Shown here one piece after another: positions 6,831 through 36,870 of a stretch of 64,000 nucleotides of DNA; positions within the stretch are counted from its first letter, which is position 1, and the number at the start of each line of letters is the position of its first letter. Origin of the DNA: an uncultured Patescibacteria group bacterium (GTDB taxonomy: Bacteria > Patescibacteriota > JACMRA01). The stretch spans positions 7,389 to 71,388 of the forward strand of contig CALITC010000006.1 of the NCBI GenBank assembly GCA_938041505.1, read 5' to 3'. The notes below the pieces were generated by a model. That model searched no databases. It was not told the DNA's origin and was given only the letters and a program-made list of their open reading frames with translations. A program made the translations under genes and the position numbers.

Positions 6831-7253
6831 CTATTTTACTCGTCTTTTGATCACCACCTCCACCTCATTGTCCTCCAAGTTAGTCAAGCTAAAACACCAT
6901 GGAGATCTTGTGTCTCCAGCGGCACAATTAGACTCATCCATACCCAACACTTCGTTGGCACCTACCGCCCCCGCGATATTGATAATGATCTCACTCTCCA
7001 TATCCGAACCTCCAAGCAGCTTAGCAAACTCCGTCCCTAAATCTTGAGCTGTGTGAATGTCTCGCCTATAATTAATAGTGTAGATATCCTCAGAATACTG
7101 AGCTTCAAAACCTTCCATATTCGATTCGTAAACTACCATATTATTTTCTGATGCAGATACTTGTTGCTCTGAAGCACTACTATTGGCAAAGTAACCAACT
7201 ACCCCAATAGTAAATAGTCCTAGCGAAATTGCTGCTGATACTTGTTTGATCAT
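6831..7253 (-). CDS. hypothetical exported protein
   Basis: N-terminal signal/TM segment followed by an acidic domain. Confidence 0.65.
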   Translation of the reverse strand: MIKQVSAAISLGLFTIGVVGYFANSSASEQQVSASENNMVVYESNMEGFEAQYSEDIYTINYRRDIHTAQDLGTEFAKLLGGSDMESEIIINIAGAVGANEVLGMDESNCAAGDTRSPWCFSLTNLEDNEVEVVIKRRVK

Positions 7254-7583
7254 ATTTTTTTGTTTTTGTTATTCCGTTATTCAAAGTATACACCAGTTAC
7301 ACGAAATTGACAAAACATCAGTGGTGCTAAAGTAATTTTGCAAAAAAAATAACCACCTTGAGCAAGTAAAGTGGCTAAATAAGTAAAAAGCAGAATGTTA
7401 AAATCAAGATTGATAAAGCACAACGACAGTAGCAAAAGTGAGCACACACGACACCGCCGCCAATGCAAAACCTATAAGTAAGTGTTTGTTATAATGTACA
7501 CCAAAAAATTCGAGCATTAATTTTTTAATAATATCCATTCATCTATAAATATCAATATAGCGTATTTGAAGAATTTTCACAAG

Positions 7584-9215
7584 TTAGATATCCAGGATGA
7601 GTTCAGACACCCACTGCTTTATCTTATCTAGCCAAGTATCTTGCAGCGGATCTACTGTTGCAGCTGGTACCGTAATTGCTTCACTCTCTCCACACCTTAC
7701 ACGCCCATCTGCACCAGTGATATACTCGCCGCACAATCTCAACCTATTACCCTCAATCTCTTGACCGTTCTGGCTGTAGCTAAATGGCTCAGCAACCTCT
7801 CGAAGTATACGCAGATTATCATCTACATCATTTTCGGGGAAACGGGCACTAAGGATAGCTAATGCGCCACTCACAGCCGGGGCAGACATAGAGGTACCCG
7901 TCATAAGAGCATACTGATTATCAGGAGCGCTCGAACCGATACGCGAACCAGGGGCGTAGATATCTACAGTTGCGTGACGATTCGAACCAGGGTGCAGCCT
8001 ACCATCATCCAGAACGTTTCCCACACTCACCGCACTCGTGATACATGCTGGCATTGCCACCCCATAGAGACCACTATTTCCGGCAGCCACCACCGAAGCC
8101 ACGCCAAGATCTTTGAGATTAGTAATAGCCGCTGTCATATCTCGGAAGAACCTATCGCACTCCCCAGCCGTGGCCTGAACCGAACCAACGCTCAAATTAA
8201 TCGCAGCTAAGTTAGACGGAGCCTGGCCACGCTGCTGCATAACTTTAACAAGTGCCAAATAGCTCATTGCTTCCAGCTGATCCGACTGAAAACTCACAAT
8301 ACACGGAGCTGGTCTCTCACCGCACCCTTGAGCCCCAGGAGCGTCGACTCGGCTAAACACCTGAATAGCGAGCAAATCCGCACCACGCGCAACACCGTTG
8401 AACTGAGGGCTCTGCAAAACCGGCGAACGCGAAGCTATCTCCTCATTACTCCCTGCGGCAATTCCAGCCACATGAGTGCCATGGCCACACCCAGGAAGAT
8501 CGCAAGGCTCTGCTGCCCCCACTCCTTGCTGCACTTCTGCCTCATCGGGGCACAAACTAGTAGCAAAACGGCTATTAGTCGAAAAACAGGCCTCCATCAC
8601 CACCCGGCCTTGCAAAAACTCATGATCCCTATCAACACCGGTATCCAAAATCGCGATCATTTGATCAGCACCTGTTCCACTTGCACCACTATTCCAGCTC
8701 GTTGTGGCGCCGATTATCGGGTTACTCGAATCAAGTGAGGGAGTCATCAAGCCATCTATCTCAATGCTAAACTCAGGTGGGGTTTTTTGAAAAATAGCGC
8801 TCAGCTCAGACTCGCTCTCAACCTCAACAGTCAGCAGCGGTGAAAGCTGGCTCATCTCAACTTGTTCTCTACTCAAGCCAAGTAGCTCCATAAGCTGCCT
8901 CTGCTCAGTCTCATACAGGTACGGTAGCTCAAACCCCTCACCCATCATTGCATCTTCTCCAGAACTGCTTTGGGCAAATTCTTGTAGCTTACTTACCTGC
9001 CCCTCTCCACTGGGATCAAGGTTAATCAGCATTCTTAAACTTCCATTATCTTGAAGATTATGCAGTATCTGCTCGTAAGTAATCACACTCTGGGGAGGCG
9101 GTGCTGTCTCTTGACCAAAAACCGGCATCGAGGCGAGCACAGAAACAAAAAGACCAATTAGTGAAAACAGGGCGACAAAGCGCGTAAAATAAATATGTAA
9201 TATAGTTGCAAACAA
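7584..9215 (-). CDS. secreted S8 (subtilisin-like) serine peptidase
   Basis: Catalytic triad motifs ILDTG, HGTHVAG, GTSMSAP; oxyanion AAGN; signal peptide. Confidence 0.92.
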   Translation of the reverse strand: MFATILHIYFTRFVALFSLIGLFVSVLASMPVFGQETAPPPQSVITYEQILHNLQDNGSLRMLINLDPSGEGQVSKLQEFAQSSSGEDAMMGEGFELPYLYETEQRQLMELLGLSREQVEMSQLSPLLTVEVESESELSAIFQKTPPEFSIEIDGLMTPSLDSSNPIIGATTSWNSGASGTGADQMIAILDTGVDRDHEFLQGRVVMEACFSTNSRFATSLCPDEAEVQQGVGAAEPCDLPGCGHGTHVAGIAAGSNEEIASRSPVLQSPQFNGVARGADLLAIQVFSRVDAPGAQGCGERPAPCIVSFQSDQLEAMSYLALVKVMQQRGQAPSNLAAINLSVGSVQATAGECDRFFRDMTAAITNLKDLGVASVVAAGNSGLYGVAMPACITSAVSVGNVLDDGRLHPGSNRHATVDIYAPGSRIGSSAPDNQYALMTGTSMSAPAVSGALAILSARFPENDVDDNLRILREVAEPFSYSQNGQEIEGNRLRLCGEYITGADGRVRCGESEAITVPAATVDPLQDTWLDKIKQWVSELILDI

Positions 9216-9577
9216 AATAGTTAGACCTCAATTACAGTTGTATTAAACCACAAAAAATTACCCTCTAACCATAGCGTATCAATTATCGAGCAGATAAAAA
9301 TACACACAAACACAACTCGGGTTGTGAATGATAAATTGGGCAAAAATGCGGTAAACTAAAGAAAGTAATCCAGGTTAATGTATAAAGTATCGGTAACCTA
9401 AAGTTTAAGTAGATTCTTGTCAAGGGAATGTCGAAGAAGCAGGGTACTAGATCAATATTATCGACCGAACCATACGGGTCTTTCCTGTTTCAGTTGAATC
9501 TCTCGGCGCGCAGACAACAAAAAAGCCCATTTACAAATTATAAATAGACTTGAAGACCAACTCACAAAAGTAAATTG

Positions 9578-9928
9578 TTAGGTAGCTACTGGTAGCTTGG
9601 GAGCATTAATTCGCTCCCCGTCACCACACACACTAAAAACAATTGATTCTTCATCAACGAACAATGCCGGGTAAAGACCTTCAACGTCTTCACAAGATAC
9701 CCTTATATCTTCAATCGATTCCAACTCTCTACGCAGTGATTTGTAGTATAGATCTGTAACCATAACTACAACAATTAAATTTTGATCTTGCCTTGCCTGT
9801 TCACAAGCTTGAACCCAATCATTCGCTATAATAGTGCCACCATTACGTTGAACAGTTCCATATCTAACTTCTGATGTACTTGGAATAGCGGCTATTGCAG
9901 ACTGAATCTTTACGTGAATACTTTTCAT
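9578..9928 (-). CDS. hypothetical protein
   Basis: 116-aa ORF with GAGGA RBS and upstream TTGACA. Confidence 0.6.
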   Translation of the reverse strand: MKSIHVKIQSAIAAIPSTSEVRYGTVQRNGGTIIANDWVQACEQARQDQNLIVVVMVTDLYYKSLRRELESIEDIRVSCEDVEGLYPALFVDEESIVFSVCGDGERINAPKLPVAT

Positions 9929-10057
9929 TATTGTCCTCTATTACTTGACCAGCTCGTATTTTGCCATAAAAAATAGTAATTGTCAAATAAACTATCAAGG
10001 CGACAAAAAAAGTCGCTTTATTATTAAAAAGCAACTCATAATTATGTTTTTACAGAA

Positions 10058-10426
10058 CTAGATTTCTTCAAAATTAGCCATCTTATCGAGAGACTTTCTC
10101 TTCGAAGATCGACAATAAGGCAACCAACAAAAAACTATAAAGCCTGTCATAAGTAAAAACTGTACAATAATTTTCGCTTGCGCACCATATCGGAACAACA
10201 AAAGTACCAAGTGAATATCTACGACTAAGAGAATCCCCAGGTTAACAAGCGAAAGAAAATAGGACTTAATACTCTGGAGATAATTCATTATATTCTCAAT
10301 GAATCTCCGTTGTTTAACTAGCCGAATCTCAACATGTTTTACAACGATCTTTACAGTAATGAGTACGGATTTTAGTAATATTAACTTCTGTTTCTTTGGC
10401 TTAATTTTTCCTGATATATTAGCCAT
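10058..10426 (-). CDS. hypothetical membrane protein
   Basis: Two hydrophobic segments; GAGG RBS and upstream TTGACA. Confidence 0.55.
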   Translation of the reverse strand: MANISGKIKPKKQKLILLKSVLITVKIVVKHVEIRLVKQRRFIENIMNYLQSIKSYFLSLVNLGILLVVDIHLVLLLFRYGAQAKIIVQFLLMTGFIVFCWLPYCRSSKRKSLDKMANFEEI

Positions 10427-10583
10427 TTTAAGACGCCTCTTGTATCTTAACTATGACACTCTAATTATCTTTAAGCAATCTGTCAAAGCAGATTATTAAG
10501 GCAAACAAAACAAAAAACAAAATATTTCACATACCAAACAATAGTCAACTTGTACATGGCTTAAATAAAGCAAATGAAGGTGT

Positions 10584-10612
10584 TTGACATATTTCGCTCC
10601 AAAGCCTATTAT
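10584..10612 (+). promoter_or_regulatory. sigma70-type promoter reading into a non-coding region
   Basis: TTGACA-17 bp-TATTAT, with no ORF for about 600 nt downstream. Confidence 0.7.
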
Positions 10613-10635
10613 TACTAATAGATTATTTTCAACAA

Positions 10636-11073
10636 GAGGAATTAGAAATTGATAGAATTAATATTTTATCAACAAAAATATCCGTTTCTGTGACATTTGT
10701 TCCAAACAAAATGCCAAGAAACTGCCCAAATTAATCTAGAAACTAGGAACTGATATGTTATTATCGCGACCGCTTAACTTTACAAATTTAGCTGAAATCC
10801 AAACTAAAAAAATCGCTACTGGAATTCTTGCAAATCCTTGGTGTTAGCAAACTGAAATACGCTAATACACCTTTTAATCTCGCAAGAGATATTTGAAAAA
10901 ACGGAGGTATTCCTTCACACCCCCACTCAGCTTTGCTTTGTGGGGATATTACTTATTTAAGAATTTTTTGCAAAAGAAAATACCTCGGTTAACGTGCGCG
11001 AGGTAGAATTGCTTTACCTTCGAACTTGGATAGATACGAAAACTAAAACAATTTTTAGAGGAGAATTCAACTC
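10636..11073 (+). ncRNA. putative large ornate structured RNA (~440 nt), family unknown
   Basis: 5'/3' closing stem, two further long-range stems, about 10 local hairpins, two GCAA tetraloops, repeated CTG(A/G)AAT loop motifs, own promoter. Confidence 0.6.
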
Positions 11074-11197
11074 ACAACCTATTTAATAAATTTTTTAAGA
11101 GTAATTTATTTAATAGAATTTATAAGAAGAATCTTATTATTATAGAGTCATTTTTGTTTGATTGTCAAGCTAACCTTTATAACTAAAAAAAATACCC

Positions 11198-11226
11198 TTT
11201 ACAAAATACCCCCAGGGGTATATACT
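11198..11226 (+). promoter_or_regulatory. promoter overlapped by a CsoR/RcnR-family-like operator
   Basis: TTTACA-17-TATACT with pseudo-palindrome ATACCCCCAGGGGTAT (11206-11221) in the spacer. Confidence 0.55.
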
Positions 11227-11235
11227 GTACTACAT

Positions 11236-11931
11236 ATGGACTTCCTTCGCAAATATAAAAGTTACATTATTTTAGCACTCATCTTAGCCGGTGTATTTAC
11301 CGCTTACCAAGCAGGTCTCAAAGACATCTTGACCCTCGAAAACCTCAAAGACAATCAGGAGAGTTTATCCAATATTCGAGACGACAATTACCTATTGTTT
11401 GTATTAGGATATATCCTGATCTATATCGTTAGTGTTGCCTTCTCCCTCCCAGGAGCCACTATCCTCACTCTAGCAGGAGGGTTATTATTTGGGCTTGTTG
11501 GAACTATATTTGTAATCATCGGGGCTACAATTGGGGCCACTCTAACCTCTATTCTGACAAGATCACTGTTTCGCACCTCTCTAGAGAAAAAATTCTCAAA
11601 GCAACTCACTCAATTCAATGAAAAACTCCAAGCCAACGAAACTGGATATTTACTCACACTTAGATTACTGCCAATATTCCCATTTTTCTTGATTAATATC
11701 TTAGCAGGGCTATCTAGAACTAAGCTTACAACTTTTGCTTGGACTACAGCACTCGGGATTATCCCAGGGACATTTGCCTACATCAATGCAGGAACACAAT
11801 TATCAAGCATAGAGAAAACCAGTGACATCCTCTCCCCTGGCCTCATTGGCGCCTTCGTATTACTAGCCGTCATCAGCCTAGCACCAGGGTACATCAAGAA
11901 ATTCTTAGATAAACGCCAAAAATCCGCCTAA
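11236..11931 (+). CDS. TVP38/TMEM64 (DedA/VTT) family membrane protein
   Basis: SLPGATILTLAGG.LFG, LRLLPIFPFFLIN, T.LGIIPGT. Confidence 0.9.
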   Translation: MDFLRKYKSYIILALILAGVFTAYQAGLKDILTLENLKDNQESLSNIRDDNYLLFVLGYILIYIVSVAFSLPGATILTLAGGLLFGLVGTIFVIIGATIGATLTSILTRSLFRTSLEKKFSKQLTQFNEKLQANETGYLLTLRLLPIFPFFLINILAGLSRTKLTTFAWTTALGIIPGTFAYINAGTQLSSIEKTSDILSPGLIGAFVLLAVISLAPGYIKKFLDKRQKSA

Positions 11932-11987
11932 AAAAATACCGCTCATACATGATAAGCAGTATTATTGCAGTTGAGAAATATCGCAAT

Positions 11988-12473
11988 TTATCCATAAAAG
12001 TTCTTTGCGAAATCTTGAATCAAAGATAAGTCATTAATTGGCTTACAACTTATCATTCTACTACGATCTGCAAAGATATCAATAACCTCAGCATCCTGTG
12101 AAGAAATTGAGTTAAATTCAGTCGTAGAGAATCTTGACAAGGCATCAATCAACCCGTCTTTATTGTTTGGCAAAACAAATTGCCCACCTATAGATCTCGT
12201 ATTCAACCACATAACAATACGGCGTAGTACCTTTTGGGAATCAAAGTACGATTGATTCTTATTATCAAAACCAAGAGTAAGATTAAGGCAAGTCTCACTA
12301 TACAATTTTAAATGGTTAAGATAGCATATTAACCCTCGAAAAATCGTCTTTTGAGGCTCAACATCATCAAACATAAGATGGCAATATTGAATTTCATTTT
12401 CGGTTTCGAATTTCAATATTGATAGCTTTGAACCTTCTTCTATAGTAACAGTATAAGTTAAGTCTAATATCAT
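11988..12473 (-). CDS. hypothetical protein
   Basis: 161-aa ORF with upstream TTGACA-17-TATACT. Confidence 0.55.
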   Translation of the reverse strand: MILDLTYTVTIEEGSKLSILKFETENEIQYCHLMFDDVEPQKTIFRGLICYLNHLKLYSETCLNLTLGFDNKNQSYFDSQKVLRRIVMWLNTRSIGGQFVLPNNKDGLIDALSRFSTTEFNSISSQDAEVIDIFADRSRMISCKPINDLSLIQDFAKNFYG

Positions 12474-12543
12474 TTATAAAACATTTCATATAGACAACTT
12501 ATATAGTATAACACATATTAAATATATTGTCAATAGTAATTTT

Positions 12544-13044
12544 CTAGAGAACTGCATTCGTAAACTGTACTCCAAAAGCTTTACACCAGATCACCACCGC
12601 ATAGTCATGTTTTGCAAATTCGGCAGCTGTCACTTCGAACGCTTGTTTACCTTCGAATTGATTCAACGGACCTAATTCCAAAAATGTATCTTCATTTGTG
12701 TCCACACCCCCAATTGAGCCACCCAGCTCCTGCTCGCTAACAAGCCACACAAACAAGTCCGGCCCACTATCAACTCGAAAATCATCTTGCAACTCCACAA
12801 TAACATTATCCCCGTCTTTGAAGACTGCCACCTCTCCATCGCCGCTATGAAGCCTATCAAGTTCCACAAAACTACCCCTTGTGATTTCAAGAAGGGTGCT
12901 CGTACTTTGAGTTAATTCAACCTGTCTTGTCTCAGCAGAATTACGCTCTTGCTTCGCAGTATTAAGAGTGCCAAAATACCACCAACTCCCTAAAAGAGCA
13001 ATAATTACGAGCCCAACCAAACCGTACAATACTTTTTTTGACAT
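12544..13044 (-). CDS. DM13 domain membrane-anchored protein
   Basis: GPDLFVWL...VVIWCKAFGV.F; N-terminal TM helix. Confidence 0.85.
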   Translation of the reverse strand: MSKKVLYGLVGLVIIALLGSWWYFGTLNTAKQERNSAETRQVELTQSTSTLLEITRGSFVELDRLHSGDGEVAVFKDGDNVIVELQDDFRVDSGPDLFVWLVSEQELGGSIGGVDTNEDTFLELGPLNQFEGKQAFEVTAAEFAKHDYAVVIWCKAFGVQFTNAVL

Positions 13045-13126
13045 ATGATTATATTCTATGCATCAAAATCATTTCTAGCAACAAAAAAGTGTAGTCGTAT
13101 CACAACCACACTTATAAATCATGTTT

Positions 13127-14068
13127 TTAAGATAGAATTGTACAACATTGCTGTAACAAATCCATCATCGACTTTCTTTTGAAGTTACGCAGGTCTTCTG
13201 AGTCACCATCCAAGGTATTCATACGAAGGTCATCCCAACCAAAAATCCCAATCATTCTAAAATAGACCAGTGCTGCCCGCCGCTTTTTGTCATACTTTTT
13301 AAGTTCATCGCAGACTCTCTTATTATTACAAGGGTAATCTCCAGCGAGGATAGTTTTGAGAGCGTCTCTTGCAGCCTCCACGTCCTCAATAGTATTTCCT
13401 TTTACTAATCTCCAATCCTCACCACGCACCAAGTCGTAGAGTAGGCCACCTGGGCGAGTTTTCAGATCTAGTTTTGTGAGATACAACACGCCATTATCTC
13501 CATACCGTATATATCTCGGAATAATATTCCCATGACAAATGTTATTACTACCGGCTATCTCAAAAAGAATATTTTTAACCTCATCGAGATTACGCAGCTC
13601 ATTTGGATAGAGATTGAGCAAACTCTCCGACCAAGAAGTTAGAGACTTCTCAATCCATTGCTGACAAGCCTCTGCAGGAGATTCTGCATAGAGAATACCA
13701 GCAACCTCAGTCTCTGCAATCAAAAAATCCAAAAATTCGTGATAGTCACAAATAAAATCAAGAATCTTACTCTTTAACTCTGAAAAATTATTTTTAGTCG
13801 AGTGTGGTAAATACTTAGTCAAAAGCAAACCTTCTTGATTTAGCTCAACTCTCGAAAAATCAGATTTGATATGAGCTGAAAATTCTTCTATATGTTGGTA
13901 CAAGATCGCTTCCAGTTTAGTAAAATTGTCATACTTACAAAAGAATTCGTGCCCATCAGGATCGATTATTTTAGTAATATGCTTATAATCCCGAATGCTC
14001 TCGATTTTATATCCTTGTGGAAATCGAGCAGAAAGAGAATTAATTATCGTCGAAGGAAGAGTAACCAT
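13127..14068 (-). CDS. hypothetical protein, possible APH/choline-kinase-like fold
   Basis: FFCK, LLLTKYLP and CHGN.IP motifs resemble a phosphotransferase core but are degenerate. Confidence 0.55.
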   Translation of the reverse strand: MVTLPSTIINSLSARFPQGYKIESIRDYKHITKIIDPDGHEFFCKYDNFTKLEAILYQHIEEFSAHIKSDFSRVELNQEGLLLTKYLPHSTKNNFSELKSKILDFICDYHEFLDFLIAETEVAGILYAESPAEACQQWIEKSLTSWSESLLNLYPNELRNLDEVKNILFEIAGSNNICHGNIIPRYIRYGDNGVLYLTKLDLKTRPGGLLYDLVRGEDWRLVKGNTIEDVEAARDALKTILAGDYPCNNKRVCDELKKYDKKRRAALVYFRMIGIFGWDDLRMNTLDGDSEDLRNFKRKSMMDLLQQCCTILS

Positions 14069-14187
14069 AGCTATTCTATATAATACAACTCTTAAAACAT
14101 ATCAGAATAGCACACTAATGTCAAAAAAATAGCAGCTCAAGAGAATCAAGCTGCATATAACACGAATTCGATACTAATCAACAATGG

Positions 14188-14991
14188 TTACGGTATATTT
14201 GGTATTTCTTTGAGATCTGAAACCAGATCAAGCTTAGAGAGTATCCATATCAAATACCAAGTAAAATCAATCTCATGAAGTCTAAGACCGTGCCGAGGAC
14301 TGCTCTGGTGAGCATGATGGTTATTATGCCACCCTTCACCAAAAGCTAAAGCTGCTACCAACCAGTTGTTACAGCTATTATCGTCAGTCTGAAAGGTTCG
14401 ATAACCCCACATATGGGTTGCAGAATTTACTAGCCAAGTAATGTGATACACGACCACAACTCTTGCAAACAAACCCCAACACACCATGCTCCAACCACCG
14501 ATAGCCAAGAAAATCAATCCCAGAACAACCTGCATGAGAATATAGATATAGTCATTAGATAAAAACGCAAGCAGTTTATCTTTTTTCAAATTAGCAATAA
14601 CTCTTTTTTCTAGATCCAGAAGATCAAACTTTTTGAAAAGCCAGCCCATATGAGACCACCAAAAACCCAAATTACTATTATGCATATCAGAATCTTGATC
14701 GGAGTATTGGTGATGCCTTTTATGCCCAGACACCCAAGCGGTAACAGGTCCTTGAATTGCCAGAGAACCACCTATGAGAGCAATAGTGCGCACAGTTGGG
14801 TGAGCTTCGAAGGCTTTGTGAGTCTCCATCCGGTGATAACCAAAGGTAATCCCAAGTATTGTATAAACACAGAAGAAGGCAAATACAACTAGATTCAACC
14901 AAGAAAAATTCCTTGGAAGAAGCACCGGCAAGCTAAACACGTGCAACAGTAAGATCGCAATAAGCGTGCCCCACTTAACATTATCAAACAT
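14188..14991 (-). CDS. desC: delta-9 acyl-lipid/acyl-CoA desaturase (DesC/Ole1-like)
   Basis: His boxes GYHRMETH, HKRHHQYSD, GEGWHNNHHA; GFWWSHMGW. Confidence 0.9.
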   Translation of the reverse strand: MFDNVKWGTLIAILLLHVFSLPVLLPRNFSWLNLVVFAFFCVYTILGITFGYHRMETHKAFEAHPTVRTIALIGGSLAIQGPVTAWVSGHKRHHQYSDQDSDMHNSNLGFWWSHMGWLFKKFDLLDLEKRVIANLKKDKLLAFLSNDYIYILMQVVLGLIFLAIGGWSMVCWGLFARVVVVYHITWLVNSATHMWGYRTFQTDDNSCNNWLVAALAFGEGWHNNHHAHQSSPRHGLRLHEIDFTWYLIWILSKLDLVSDLKEIPNIP

Positions 14992-15116
14992 TTTATTATT
15001 CTATTGTAAGAGTATTATAATTTTAGGCGAATAGAACTAGGAAGTCAAAAAGAAAATAATTGACATATTGTAATTATCGTGTTCTAATTTGCCAGTCTTA
15101 TACTACAGTAAAATAA

Positions 15117-36759: not shown

Positions 36760-36870
36760 CGTGGATGAAAGGAGTTGAACCTTTGACACCTGGGGGCAAT
36801 ACTAAAGAGGTAAGTATTAAGGTTTTCCTCCTTGTAAGTCCCAGTGCTCTACCAACTGAGCTACATCCAC
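36760..36870 (-). tRNA. tRNA-like RNA with a 45-nt structured insert replacing the anticodon loop
   Basis: Perfect acceptor (GTGGATG/CATCCAC), D, T and anticodon (CTGGG/CCCAG) stems; 45-nt loop; no CCA. Confidence 0.75.

What the first reader, a model, noticed from the sequence alone, without database searches (positions are those of the whole stretch)
10584..11080. Candidate ~440-nt ornate non-coding RNA with its own consensus promoter
Seen: TTGACA-17-TATTAT fires into an ORF-free region that folds by eye into a closed multi-junction structure. Long-range pairings: GAG-GAATT (10636) with AATTC-AA-CTC (11064-11073); TATCCG (10679) with TGGATA (11027); CGCGAC..TTAACT (~10765) with GGTTAA..GTGCGCG (~10987); GAGGTATT (10904) with AATACCTC (10979). 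Local hairpins: TTGATAGAAT/ATTTTATCAA, GTTTCT/AGAAAC, GGTGT-TAGC/GCTA-ACACC, ATCTC-GCAA-GAGAT, CCCCAC/GTGGGG, TTTTT-GCAA-AAGAA, GAGGTAG/TTACCTT. Three loops carry a recurring CTG(A/G)AAT motif suggestive of T-loops, and two are GNRA tetraloops. It lacks RNase P (GAGGAAAGTCC), tmRNA, SRP, T-box and group I/II intron signatures. The downstream gene has a separate promoter, so this is unlikely to be a UTR. Inference: a large RNA comparable in style to ROOL/GOLLD/OLE, possibly a new class.
Basis: partly seen in the sequence, partly recalled or inferred. Interest (0 to 1): 0.82.

Follow-up and report, generated by a model that had tools for sequence, protein, structure and literature searches.

The report
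Hairpin-rich spacer with two facing promoters
A roughly 700-base non-coding gap in a small bacterial genome carries two strong promoters that face each other and several RNA hairpins, but nothing shows that it encodes one large, conserved 'ornate' RNA.

Summary
No known RNA family matches, and no open frame looks coding. The region folds better than shuffles on both strands: z -2.8 on + and -4.0 on -.

The excess stability comes from local hairpins. The four long-range pairings that 'close' the proposed 440-nt fold have pair probabilities of 0.05-0.35. Long-range stems of that length are as common in shuffled sequence.

Hairpin-plus-T-tract terminator-like sites occur only on the minus strand.

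The sequence is a singleton. BLASTN and two covariance models found nothing in 40-400 related genomes. This genome's RNase P RNA, as a control, was found in 22 of 24 family genomes. Only the source sample holds the DNA, and no RNA run was listed.

Best reading: a lineage-specific spacer with two convergent small transcription units. One is a minus-strand sRNA of about 160-240 nt. The other is a plus-strand upstream transcript toward the VTT/DedA gene. It is not a new ornate RNA class. No transcript has been seen, so this remains unverified. Interest is low to moderate.

The parts
10584..10612 (+). Promoter-like site TTGACA-17-TATTAT (11 of 12). The expected transcript start is near 10618-10620. 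The next same-strand ORF of >=80 aa starts 624 nt downstream.
11139..11168 (-). Promoter-like site TTGACA-18-TATAAT (12 of 12) firing leftwards into the same region. The expected start is near 11132. The next same-strand ORF is 713 nt away.
10972..11132 (-). Candidate minus-strand sRNA of 161 nt. It has a 5' AU-rich hairpin (11132-11065), a single-stranded UCUCCUCUAAA linker (11064-11054), hairpin 2 (11053-11007), a terminator-like hairpin TACCTCG/CGAGGTA (11005-10981) and a TTTTCTTTT tail (10980-10972). MFE is -34.4 kcal/mol, z -4.50, with 0 of 200 shuffles as good.
10896..10924 (-). Second minus-strand terminator-like site. Hairpin GGGGGTGT/ATACCTCC (10924-10903), then G and TTTTTT (10901-10896). 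The 41 nt before the T tract fold at -14.1 kcal/mol. This hairpin competes with the 10947-10919 hairpin.
10671..10722 (-). Third minus-strand hairpin plus T tract. Hairpin 10722-10684 (-10.0 kcal/mol), then GGA and TATTTTTGTT (10680-10671).
10649..10672 (.). Local hairpin TTGATAGAAT/ATTTTATCAA. Pair probability is 0.96 on +. On - it forms 7+3 bp at 0.98 and 0.80.
10840..10871 (.). Local hairpin GGTGT-TAGC / GCTA-ACACC with a 10-12-nt loop that holds one CTGAAAT copy.
10877..10890 (+). Small hairpin ATCTC-GCAA-GAGAT. The loop reads as a GNRA-type tetraloop only on the + strand. Pair probability is 0.82 for 4 bp.
10919..10947 (.). The strongest hairpin, CCCCAC..GTGGGG. It is 6 bp on + (p 1.0) and 8 bp on - (p 0.98), with an inner AGC/GCT stem.
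10904..10986 (.). It is the only perfect 8-bp long-range stem. Pair probability is 0.13-0.20 on +. Shuffles give 3.0+-1.8 such stems.
10792..10858 (+). Three CTGRAAT copies at 10792, 10819 and 10852. This is a local cluster. The pattern is at chance window-wide (25 found against 26.3 expected).
10458..10486 (-). Promoter-like site TTGACA-17-TAGAGT (10 of 12) for ORF 10426-10058 (122 aa). It stands back to back with the + promoter.
11198..11226 (+). Promoter-like site TTTACA-17-TATACT (10 of 12) for the VTT/DedA gene (ATG at 11236). It stands back to back with the - promoter.

Best explanation
The stretch 10487-11197 is a lineage-specific, AT-rich, non-coding spacer between two diverging genes: ORF122 on the minus strand and a VTT/DedA membrane-protein gene on the plus strand.

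Each gene has its own proximal promoter. Next to each proximal promoter, back to back, sits a second near-perfect sigma-70 promoter pointing inwards. The two inner promoters therefore converge on about 510 nt of hairpin-rich sequence.

I read this as two small transcription units, not one large RNA.
1. A minus-strand sRNA starts near 11132. It ends at a hairpin-plus-U tract near 10972 (about 160 nt) or near 10896 (about 237 nt).
2. A plus-strand transcript starts near 10619. It meets no terminator-like site and probably runs on toward the VTT/DedA gene as a long upstream leader.

The minus-strand RNA is fully complementary to the 3' part of that leader. The most likely mechanism is cis-antisense control of the upstream-promoter transcripts of the VTT/DedA gene, by transcriptional interference or by duplex formation.

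Shown: the promoter geometry, the hairpins, the terminator-like sites, and the lack of coding signal and of homologues. Inferred: that either promoter fires, where the transcripts end, and any regulatory effect.
For: - Consensus promoters are functional signals in this genome. 144 sites match >=11 of 12 and 16 match perfectly. 115 of the 144 lie in the 167,156 of 1,124,582 bases outside ORFs of >=100 aa.
- 79 of 140 such sites sit <50 nt before an ORF (median 37). The two here are 624 and 713 nt from the next ORF, so they are orphans.
- By my own arithmetic from base composition, a 12 of 12 site in 700 nt is expected about 0.003 times.
- Minus strand 11132-10972 folds into three clean hairpins plus a U tail, z -4.50, 0 of 200 shuffles. 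11132-10893 gives z -4.64.
- Hairpin-plus-T-tract sites with <= -7 kcal/mol number three on the - strand (10982, 10902, 10681) and none on the + strand within 10619-11236.
- In this genome such sites occur at 4.8 per kb-strand in the 80 nt after ORF stops, against 1.4 per kb-strand in other intergenic DNA. About 0.7 are therefore expected here (my arithmetic, Poisson P about 0.04).
- Structure is local and falls into two islands with an unstructured stretch between them. Long-range stems are at chance.
- There is no coding signal. The longest ORF is 37 aa. Small ORFs score -0.14 to -0.58 log-odds per codon, against +0.06 to +0.16 for neighbouring genes. The ten longest open frames have no convincing Pfam match; only one gave weak sub-threshold hits.
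Against: - No transcript data of any kind exist, so neither promoter is shown to fire.
- The minus strand is the T- and G-rich strand here. That raises its background of T tracts and G-U pairs, so the strand asymmetry in terminator-like sites is partly compositional.
- The plus strand also folds well (z -4.03 for 10619-10962). It carries a GC-rich hairpin at 10921-10945 followed by T-rich sequence, which could end a ~340-nt RNA.
- Orphan consensus promoters are not rare. There are 29 in the genome, of which only 4 precede tRNAs. The 18 stretches downstream of 19 other orphan sites that I scanned hold no known RNA.
- The spacer and both flanking small ORFs have no counterpart in 25 family genomes. 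Purifying selection therefore cannot be shown.
Confidence: 0.4

Rival explanations
1. One reading: one ~440-460-nt structured non-coding RNA on the + strand (10619 to about 11080), closed by 5'-3' pairing, with T-loop-like and GNRA loops. It would be a new large RNA.
For: - The + promoter matches 11 of 12.
- Fold z is -2.78, 1 of 100 shuffles.
- The proposed fold is within 2.2 kcal/mol of the MFE.
- One GCAA loop is specific to the + strand.
- No known family matches.
Against: - The long-range helices have probabilities of 0.05-0.35 and are at the chance level of shuffles.
- Windows in the middle of the region (within 10660-10859) have z of about -0.8 to +1.6.
- No terminator-like site lies on the + strand.
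- An opposing 12 of 12 promoter lies inside the proposed 3' flank.
- No homologue appears in 40, 60 or 400 genomes, while the RNase P control is found in 22 of 24 family genomes.
Confidence: 0.07
2. The same idea on the other strand: a ~460-nt minus-strand RNA from about 11132 to the hairpin plus T tract at about 10672.
For: - The - promoter is a perfect 12 of 12 match.
- z is -4.22, 0 of 100 shuffles, for 11132-10672.
- z is -4.81 for the central 462 nt, the lowest of the 22 gaps scored.
- A terminator-like site lies at 10681.
Against: - Two earlier terminator-like sites, at 10982 and 10902, would have to be read through.
- The structure is a string of local hairpins.
- There are no homologues.
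Confidence: 0.08
3. Excludon-like arrangement. Both inner promoters are distal promoters of the flanking genes. Their long 5' UTRs overlap in antisense over 10619-11132, so expression of one gene dampens the other. There is no free-standing RNA product.
For: - Promoter geometry: two back-to-back pairs whose inner promoters converge.
- There is no + strand terminator before the VTT/DedA gene.
- In this genome 25 of 140 near-consensus sites lie >=400 nt from the next ORF.
Against: - Three terminator-like sites lie on the - strand before ORF122.
- ORF122 itself scores as doubtfully coding, -0.03 per codon.
- Both genes have proximal promoters at the usual short distance.
Confidence: 0.15
4. No dedicated function. 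The spacer is recently acquired or fast-decaying AT-rich DNA in a rearranged, ORFan-rich patch. The hairpins and promoter-like sites are by-products of composition and history.
For: - GC is 0.29-0.36 here against 0.385 for the genome.
- Both neighbouring small ORFs are found in 0 of 25 family genomes.
- The nearest DedA orthologues (63-65% identity) have spacers of only 69-94 nt, and the gene is inverted relative to EF-Tu.
- The genome has 152 ORF-free gaps of >=300 nt, and this one is the 17th largest.
- Several other gaps reach z of about -3.
Against: - Two sites matching 11 and 12 of 12 within 700 nt are far above what composition predicts (my arithmetic: about 0.08 and about 0.003).
- The fold z is the most extreme of the 22 gaps on one strand.
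- No trace of a decayed gene was found.
Confidence: 0.2
5. Small-protein genes. Candidates are the 30-aa ORF at 10755-10847 (AGGA, 6 nt, ATG), the 37-aa ORF at 10893-11006, or a 14-codon ORF from TTG 10649, which lies 9 nt after GAGG and at the modal promoter distance.
For: - The ORFs exist.
- SD-like motifs and spacings can be read directly.
- TTG 10649 lies 37 nt after the -10 hexamer, which is the genome median.
Against: - Codon log-odds are negative: -0.16, -0.40 and -0.58.
- There are no paralogues in the genome.
- The two ORFs looked up (30 aa, 37 aa) are absent from the 15-billion-protein collection.
- The open frames containing the 30-aa and 37-aa ORFs have no Pfam match.
Confidence: 0.07

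Closest known systems
Large ornate bacterial RNAs (ROOL, GOLLD, OLE)
   Same: The region is non-coding, several hundred nucleotides long, and rich in stem-loops.
   Different: Those are families defined by conservation and covariation across many genomes, and Rfam models exist for them. Here no Rfam model matches. No homologue exists in the genomes searched. The long-range architecture is not above chance. My knowledge of these RNAs is from recall plus the search listing and abstract of PMC12286853. I did not read the paper.
Bacterial sRNA genes with their own sigma-70 promoter and an intrinsic terminator, including cis-antisense sRNAs
   Same: An orphan consensus promoter, 2-3 hairpins, a final GC-containing hairpin followed by a U tract, a length of about 160-240 nt, and a position antisense to another transcript.
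   Different: No transcript has been seen. There is no conserved family. The terminator loop is long (11 nt).
Excludon-type overlapping 5' UTRs of divergent genes (described in Listeria; recalled, no paper read here)
   Same: Divergent genes whose distal promoters would give long, fully overlapping antisense leaders.
   Different: Terminator-like sites interrupt the minus-strand path. One of the two genes (ORF122) is doubtfully coding.
Type I toxin-antitoxin loci (convergent toxin mRNA and antisense RNA)
   Same: Convergent promoters about 520 nt apart, and a structured RNA with possible 5'-3' pairing.
   Different: There is no convincing small hydrophobic toxin ORF. There are no further copies in the genome.

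Membership tests
Any Rfam 15 family (including ROOL, GOLLD, OLE, HEARO, RNase P, tmRNA, SRP, 6S, T-box, group I/II introns) | A match to the family covariance model at or near its gathering score | tested here: not met
   only 6 tRNAs elsewhere in the window; within 10400-11300 at E<=10 there are 7 hits of 8.9-17.8 bits, all far below their cut-offs.
RNase P RNA | It would be the genome's RNase P RNA gene | tested here: not met
   RNase P RNA lies elsewhere, at G000:C8:33576-33841 (75.5 bits, E 2e-23).
Large ornate RNA as a kind | A multi-helix architecture conserved across species, with covarying pairs | tested here: inconclusive
   No homologue could be aligned. BLASTN against 40 and 400 genomes gave only 21-46-nt AT-rich hits. 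Covariance models R1 and R2 gave best non-self E-values of 0.28 and 0.07. Covariation therefore cannot be computed.
Large ornate RNA as a kind | Long-range helices that close a defined multi-junction fold | tested here: not met
   Pair probabilities are 0.05-0.35. Long-range stem counts equal those of shuffles.
Large ornate RNA as a kind | Non-coding | tested here: met
Promoter-to-terminator sRNA gene | Its own promoter with no ORF behind it | tested here: met
   (both strands).
Promoter-to-terminator sRNA gene | An intrinsic terminator (hairpin plus U tract) 50-400 nt downstream | tested here: met
   Minus strand: 10982, 10902 and 10681, with background rates. Plus strand: none.
Promoter-to-terminator sRNA gene | A discrete transcript is observed | not testable with these tools
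   No RNA run was listed for this DNA. Only source-sample DNA contigs cover it.
Type I toxin-antitoxin | A small hydrophobic toxin ORF with a ribosome-binding site | tested here: not met
   no ORF of >=20 aa with a membrane-spanning hydrophobic stretch (my reading of the translations). All small ORFs have negative codon log-odds.
Replication origin | A DnaA-box cluster and a GC-skew switch | tested here: not met
   There is one 1-mismatch box in the region, and the window count is at chance (24 against 20.4+-4.9). GC skew stays negative across 7000-15000, apart from two windows at about zero.

The most novel reading that the evidence does not exclude
The spacer encodes a genuinely structured RNA of about 450 nt, on either strand, that is restricted to this so-far single-sample lineage of a small-genome phylum. 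It would be a young, lineage-specific large RNA with no detectable relatives.
Probability: 0.12. Interest if true: 0.5.

Novelty: new member of a known kind. Interest (0 to 1): 0.25.

Why it matters
If the minus-strand sRNA or the antisense pair is real, it would be one of very few regulatory RNAs proposed for an uncultivated small-genome bacterium, a group where almost no sRNA biology is known. It would also link antisense control to a VTT/DedA membrane protein.

As it stands, this is a single-genome prediction without conservation or expression data. Its main value is cautionary: by-eye long-range pairings in AT-rich DNA are at chance level, and both strands must be examined.

Tried and rejected
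NOTHING FOUND
- Sequencing runs: one DNA holder (possibly the source sample) and no RNA holder listed. Laying contigs of 3 runs at 80% likeness gave only the source contig, with one T>A difference at 11110 and no related strain.
- The search for related loci with the VTT/DedA protein in metagenome contigs: 288 pattern hits, none a relative.
- The search for related loci with ORF116 in viral contigs: none.
- Phage and plasmid collections, distant BLASTN: 0 phage hits. Three 47-nt chance hits under integrase genes of Clostridium plasmids, not followed up.

PSEUDOGENE IDEA, REJECTED
- tblastn of all open frames of >=60 aa from the two nearest orthologous loci against 9200-11400 matched only the DedA gene itself.
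- Pfam on the ten longest open frames gave nothing convincing. The best was E 0.022, below cut-off, and lies outside the candidate at 10465-10584.

OTHER IDEAS, REJECTED
- Alternative code: table 25 opens no long frame; the longest is 89 aa stop to stop.
- Origin of replication.
- Repeat or mobile element: single copy in the genome. The only 24-nt match lies inside an M23-peptidase-like coding frame (my reading of the translation). No terminal inverted repeats.
- Short BLAST hits to 10640-10685 in 6 phylum genomes. The two I inspected (G009, G175) were AT-rich intergenic or gene-end sequence; at least one is promoter-like, not homologous.
- Divergent housekeeping RNA: 6S, tmRNA and small SRP RNA were not found anywhere in this 69%-complete assembly. 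That leaves them unaccounted for. But a housekeeping RNA should be conserved in relatives, as RNase P is, and this region is not.

TOOLS

Full report
WHAT IS THERE

The finding covers 10584-11080 of a window that lies in contig C6 of a 1.12-Mb assembly. The assembly is 69% complete and has GC 0.385. Its phylum-mates have genomes of 0.5-2 Mb.

The stretch between ORF122 (10058-10426, minus strand) and the VTT/DedA-family gene (ATG 11236; Pfam PF09335, E 1e-22) holds no ORF longer than 37 aa. Under table 25 the longest stop-to-stop frame is 89 aa. Small ORFs have negative codon log-odds, -0.14 to -0.58 per codon, against +0.06 to +0.16 for neighbouring genes. The ten longest open frames have no convincing Pfam match. 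The region is therefore non-coding, as claimed.

KNOWN FAMILIES

No Rfam 15 family reaches its gathering score in the region. At E<=10 there are only 7 noise hits of 9-18 bits. The genome's RNase P RNA is elsewhere, at C8:33576-33841, 75.5 bits. 6S, tmRNA and small SRP RNA were not found anywhere in this incomplete assembly.

IS THE FOLD MORE THAN CHANCE?

Partly.
- 10619-11080 gives z -2.78 on the + strand (1 of 100 shuffles as good) and -4.00 on the - strand (0 of 100).
- I scored 22 long ORF-free gaps of the same genome: central 462 nt, 25 shuffles. I had queued 34; 12 were not reached, and the 3,355-nt largest gap was left out.
- This gap ranks 2nd on + (-3.61) and 1st on - (-4.81). Some of the other strongly negative gaps contain tRNA genes.

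So there is real excess stability, but it is local.
- 120-nt windows are significant at 10620-10739 and at 10780-11019. Windows within 10660-10859 have z of about -0.8 to +1.6.
- Only local hairpins have pair probability >=0.7.
- Perfect long-range stems are no more frequent than in dinucleotide shuffles. At >=6 bp there are 35 against 37.6+-6.6. At >=7 bp there are 12 against 10.8. At >=8 bp there is 1 against 3.0.
- Local hairpins of >=6 bp are modestly enriched: 7 against 3.2+-2.0, with 10 of 150 shuffles as many.

The 'closed multi-junction' architecture is therefore not supported.

The CTGRAAT motif occurs three times within 67 nt, but it is at chance window-wide. Only one copy lies in a predicted loop.

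PROMOTERS AND STRAND

The + promoter (10584-10612) matches 11 of 12. A perfect TTGACA-18-TATAAT on the minus strand (11168-11139) points the other way, into the same DNA.

Such sites are meaningful in this organism.
- 144 sites match >=11 of 12, and 115 of them lie in the 15% of the genome outside long ORFs.
- 79 of 140 sit <50 nt before an ORF.
- The two here are 624 and 713 nt from the next ORF.

Each stands back to back with the proximal promoter of a flanking gene, at 10486-10458 and at 11198-11226. The geometry is two divergent promoter pairs whose inner members converge.

Terminator-like hairpin-plus-T-tract sites (<= -7 kcal/mol) occur three times on the minus strand, at 10982, 10902 and 10681. 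There are none on the plus strand before the DedA gene. Genome-wide such sites run at 4.8 per kb-strand just after ORF stops and 1.4 per kb-strand in other intergenic DNA.

The minus-strand stretch 11132-10972 folds into three clean hairpins and a U tail, z -4.50, 0 of 200 shuffles. A single-stranded UCUCCUCU linker sits between the first two hairpins. The plus-strand stretch 10619-10962 also folds well, z -4.03. The strand cannot be settled from sequence. The minus strand is also the G- and T-rich strand across this part of the contig.

CONSERVATION

None was found.
- BLASTN of the region against 40 relatives gave 3 hits of 29-46 nt at E of about 8e-4.
- Against 400 genomes of the phylum it gave 13 hits of 21-44 nt. 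The two I inspected were AT-rich intergenic or gene-end sequence, at least one of them promoter-like.
- The same search with this genome's RNase P RNA found 22 of 24 family genomes and 24 of 40 overall.
- Single-sequence covariance models of 10838-11022 (+) and of 11132-10972 (-) found only themselves. Best non-self E-values were 0.28 in 60 genomes and 0.07 in 40 genomes.
- The nearest DedA orthologues (63-65% identity, another genus) have 69-94-nt upstream spacers and a different gene order.
- ORF116 and ORF122 are found in 0 of 25 family genomes.
- All four neighbouring proteins looked up have no close relative from another organism among about 15 billion proteins. Three are one-member clusters; the DedA cluster's second member is a longer form of the same gene from another assembly.
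- No relative turned up in metagenome or viral contigs. Phage and plasmid records gave only three 47-nt chance hits.
- Only one DNA run, possibly the source, holds the sequence. No RNA run was listed, and no strain variant exists to compare.

INTERPRETATION

The best-supported reading (about 0.4) is a lineage-specific spacer with two convergent small transcription units.
- One is a minus-strand, intrinsically terminated sRNA of about 160-240 nt.
- The other is a plus-strand transcript without a terminator, which probably serves as a long upstream leader of the VTT/DedA gene.
- The sRNA would act in cis-antisense on that leader.

Rivals:
- An excludon-like pair of overlapping leaders (0.15).
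- Functionless, recently acquired AT-rich DNA (0.2).
- Small-protein genes (0.07).

COMPARISON AND NOVELTY

It works, if at all, like an ordinary promoter-to-terminator sRNA or antisense locus. It is not a member of any Rfam family. It fails the features that define large ornate RNAs: long-range architecture was tested and not met, and conservation is untestable for want of homologues.

What I say about ROOL, GOLLD and OLE rests on recall and on the listing and abstract of PMC12286853. No paper was read in full, and supplements were not consulted. My two literature searches listed no paper on large structured RNAs of Patescibacteria among the top 12 results shown, but they were not exhaustive.

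VERDICT

The locus is at most a new member of a known kind (an unannotated sRNA or antisense locus), unverified for lack of any transcript or comparative data. Interest 0.25.

Noticed in passing
window 11192-11226: An operator-like inverted repeat, ATACCCC-CA-GGGGTAT (11206-11221), lies between the -35 and -10 hexamers of the VTT/DedA promoter. A further ATACCC half-site lies at 11192-11197. The gene's ATG (11236) follows the -10 hexamer by only 9 nt and has no SD, so the mRNA looks leaderless. Read.
   Followed up: no
window 10792-10858: Three same-strand CTGRAAT copies, 27 and 33 nt apart, each just after AGC or GCTA. They lie in the stretch with no fold signal. The pattern is at chance window-wide. 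This could be a protein-binding array or nothing.
   Followed up: partly
G000 whole assembly: The RNase P RNA is short: 266 nt and 75.5 bits, under Rfam's 100-bit cut-off (C8:33576-33841). No 6S, tmRNA or small SRP RNA was detected in the 69%-complete assembly.
   Followed up: partly
G000: C10:95104-95802, C4:50134-50852, C10:61988-62784, C10:72730-73432, C1:41384-42679: Other long ORF-free gaps fold with z of about -3 on both strands. The genome has 29 orphan near-consensus promoters, and only 4 precede tRNAs. The 18 stretches downstream of 19 other orphan sites that I scanned gave no Rfam hit. These may hold further unannotated RNAs.
   Followed up: partly
window 7584-9215: The subtilase (Peptidase_S8) gene has GC of 0.49-0.55, against 0.385 for the genome. 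It is probably horizontally acquired, and it lies next to the ORFan patch.
   Followed up: no
window 10058-10426 (-): ORF122 has a promoter-like site, an AGAGG SD 9 nt before the ATG, and a bidirectional terminator-like hairpin at 10000-10037. But its codon log-odds are about zero (-0.03), and no relative was found in 25 family genomes. If it is not a gene, the non-coding stretch is about 1.3 kb.
   Followed up: partly
window 36760-36870 (-): A tRNA match spans 111 nt for a 71-position model. It may carry an insertion or an intron.
   Followed up: no
window 11080-11133: An AT-rich tandem repeat: period 14, 3.2 copies, which also reads as a 27-nt direct repeat. It forms the 5' hairpin of the candidate minus-strand sRNA.
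   Followed up: partly
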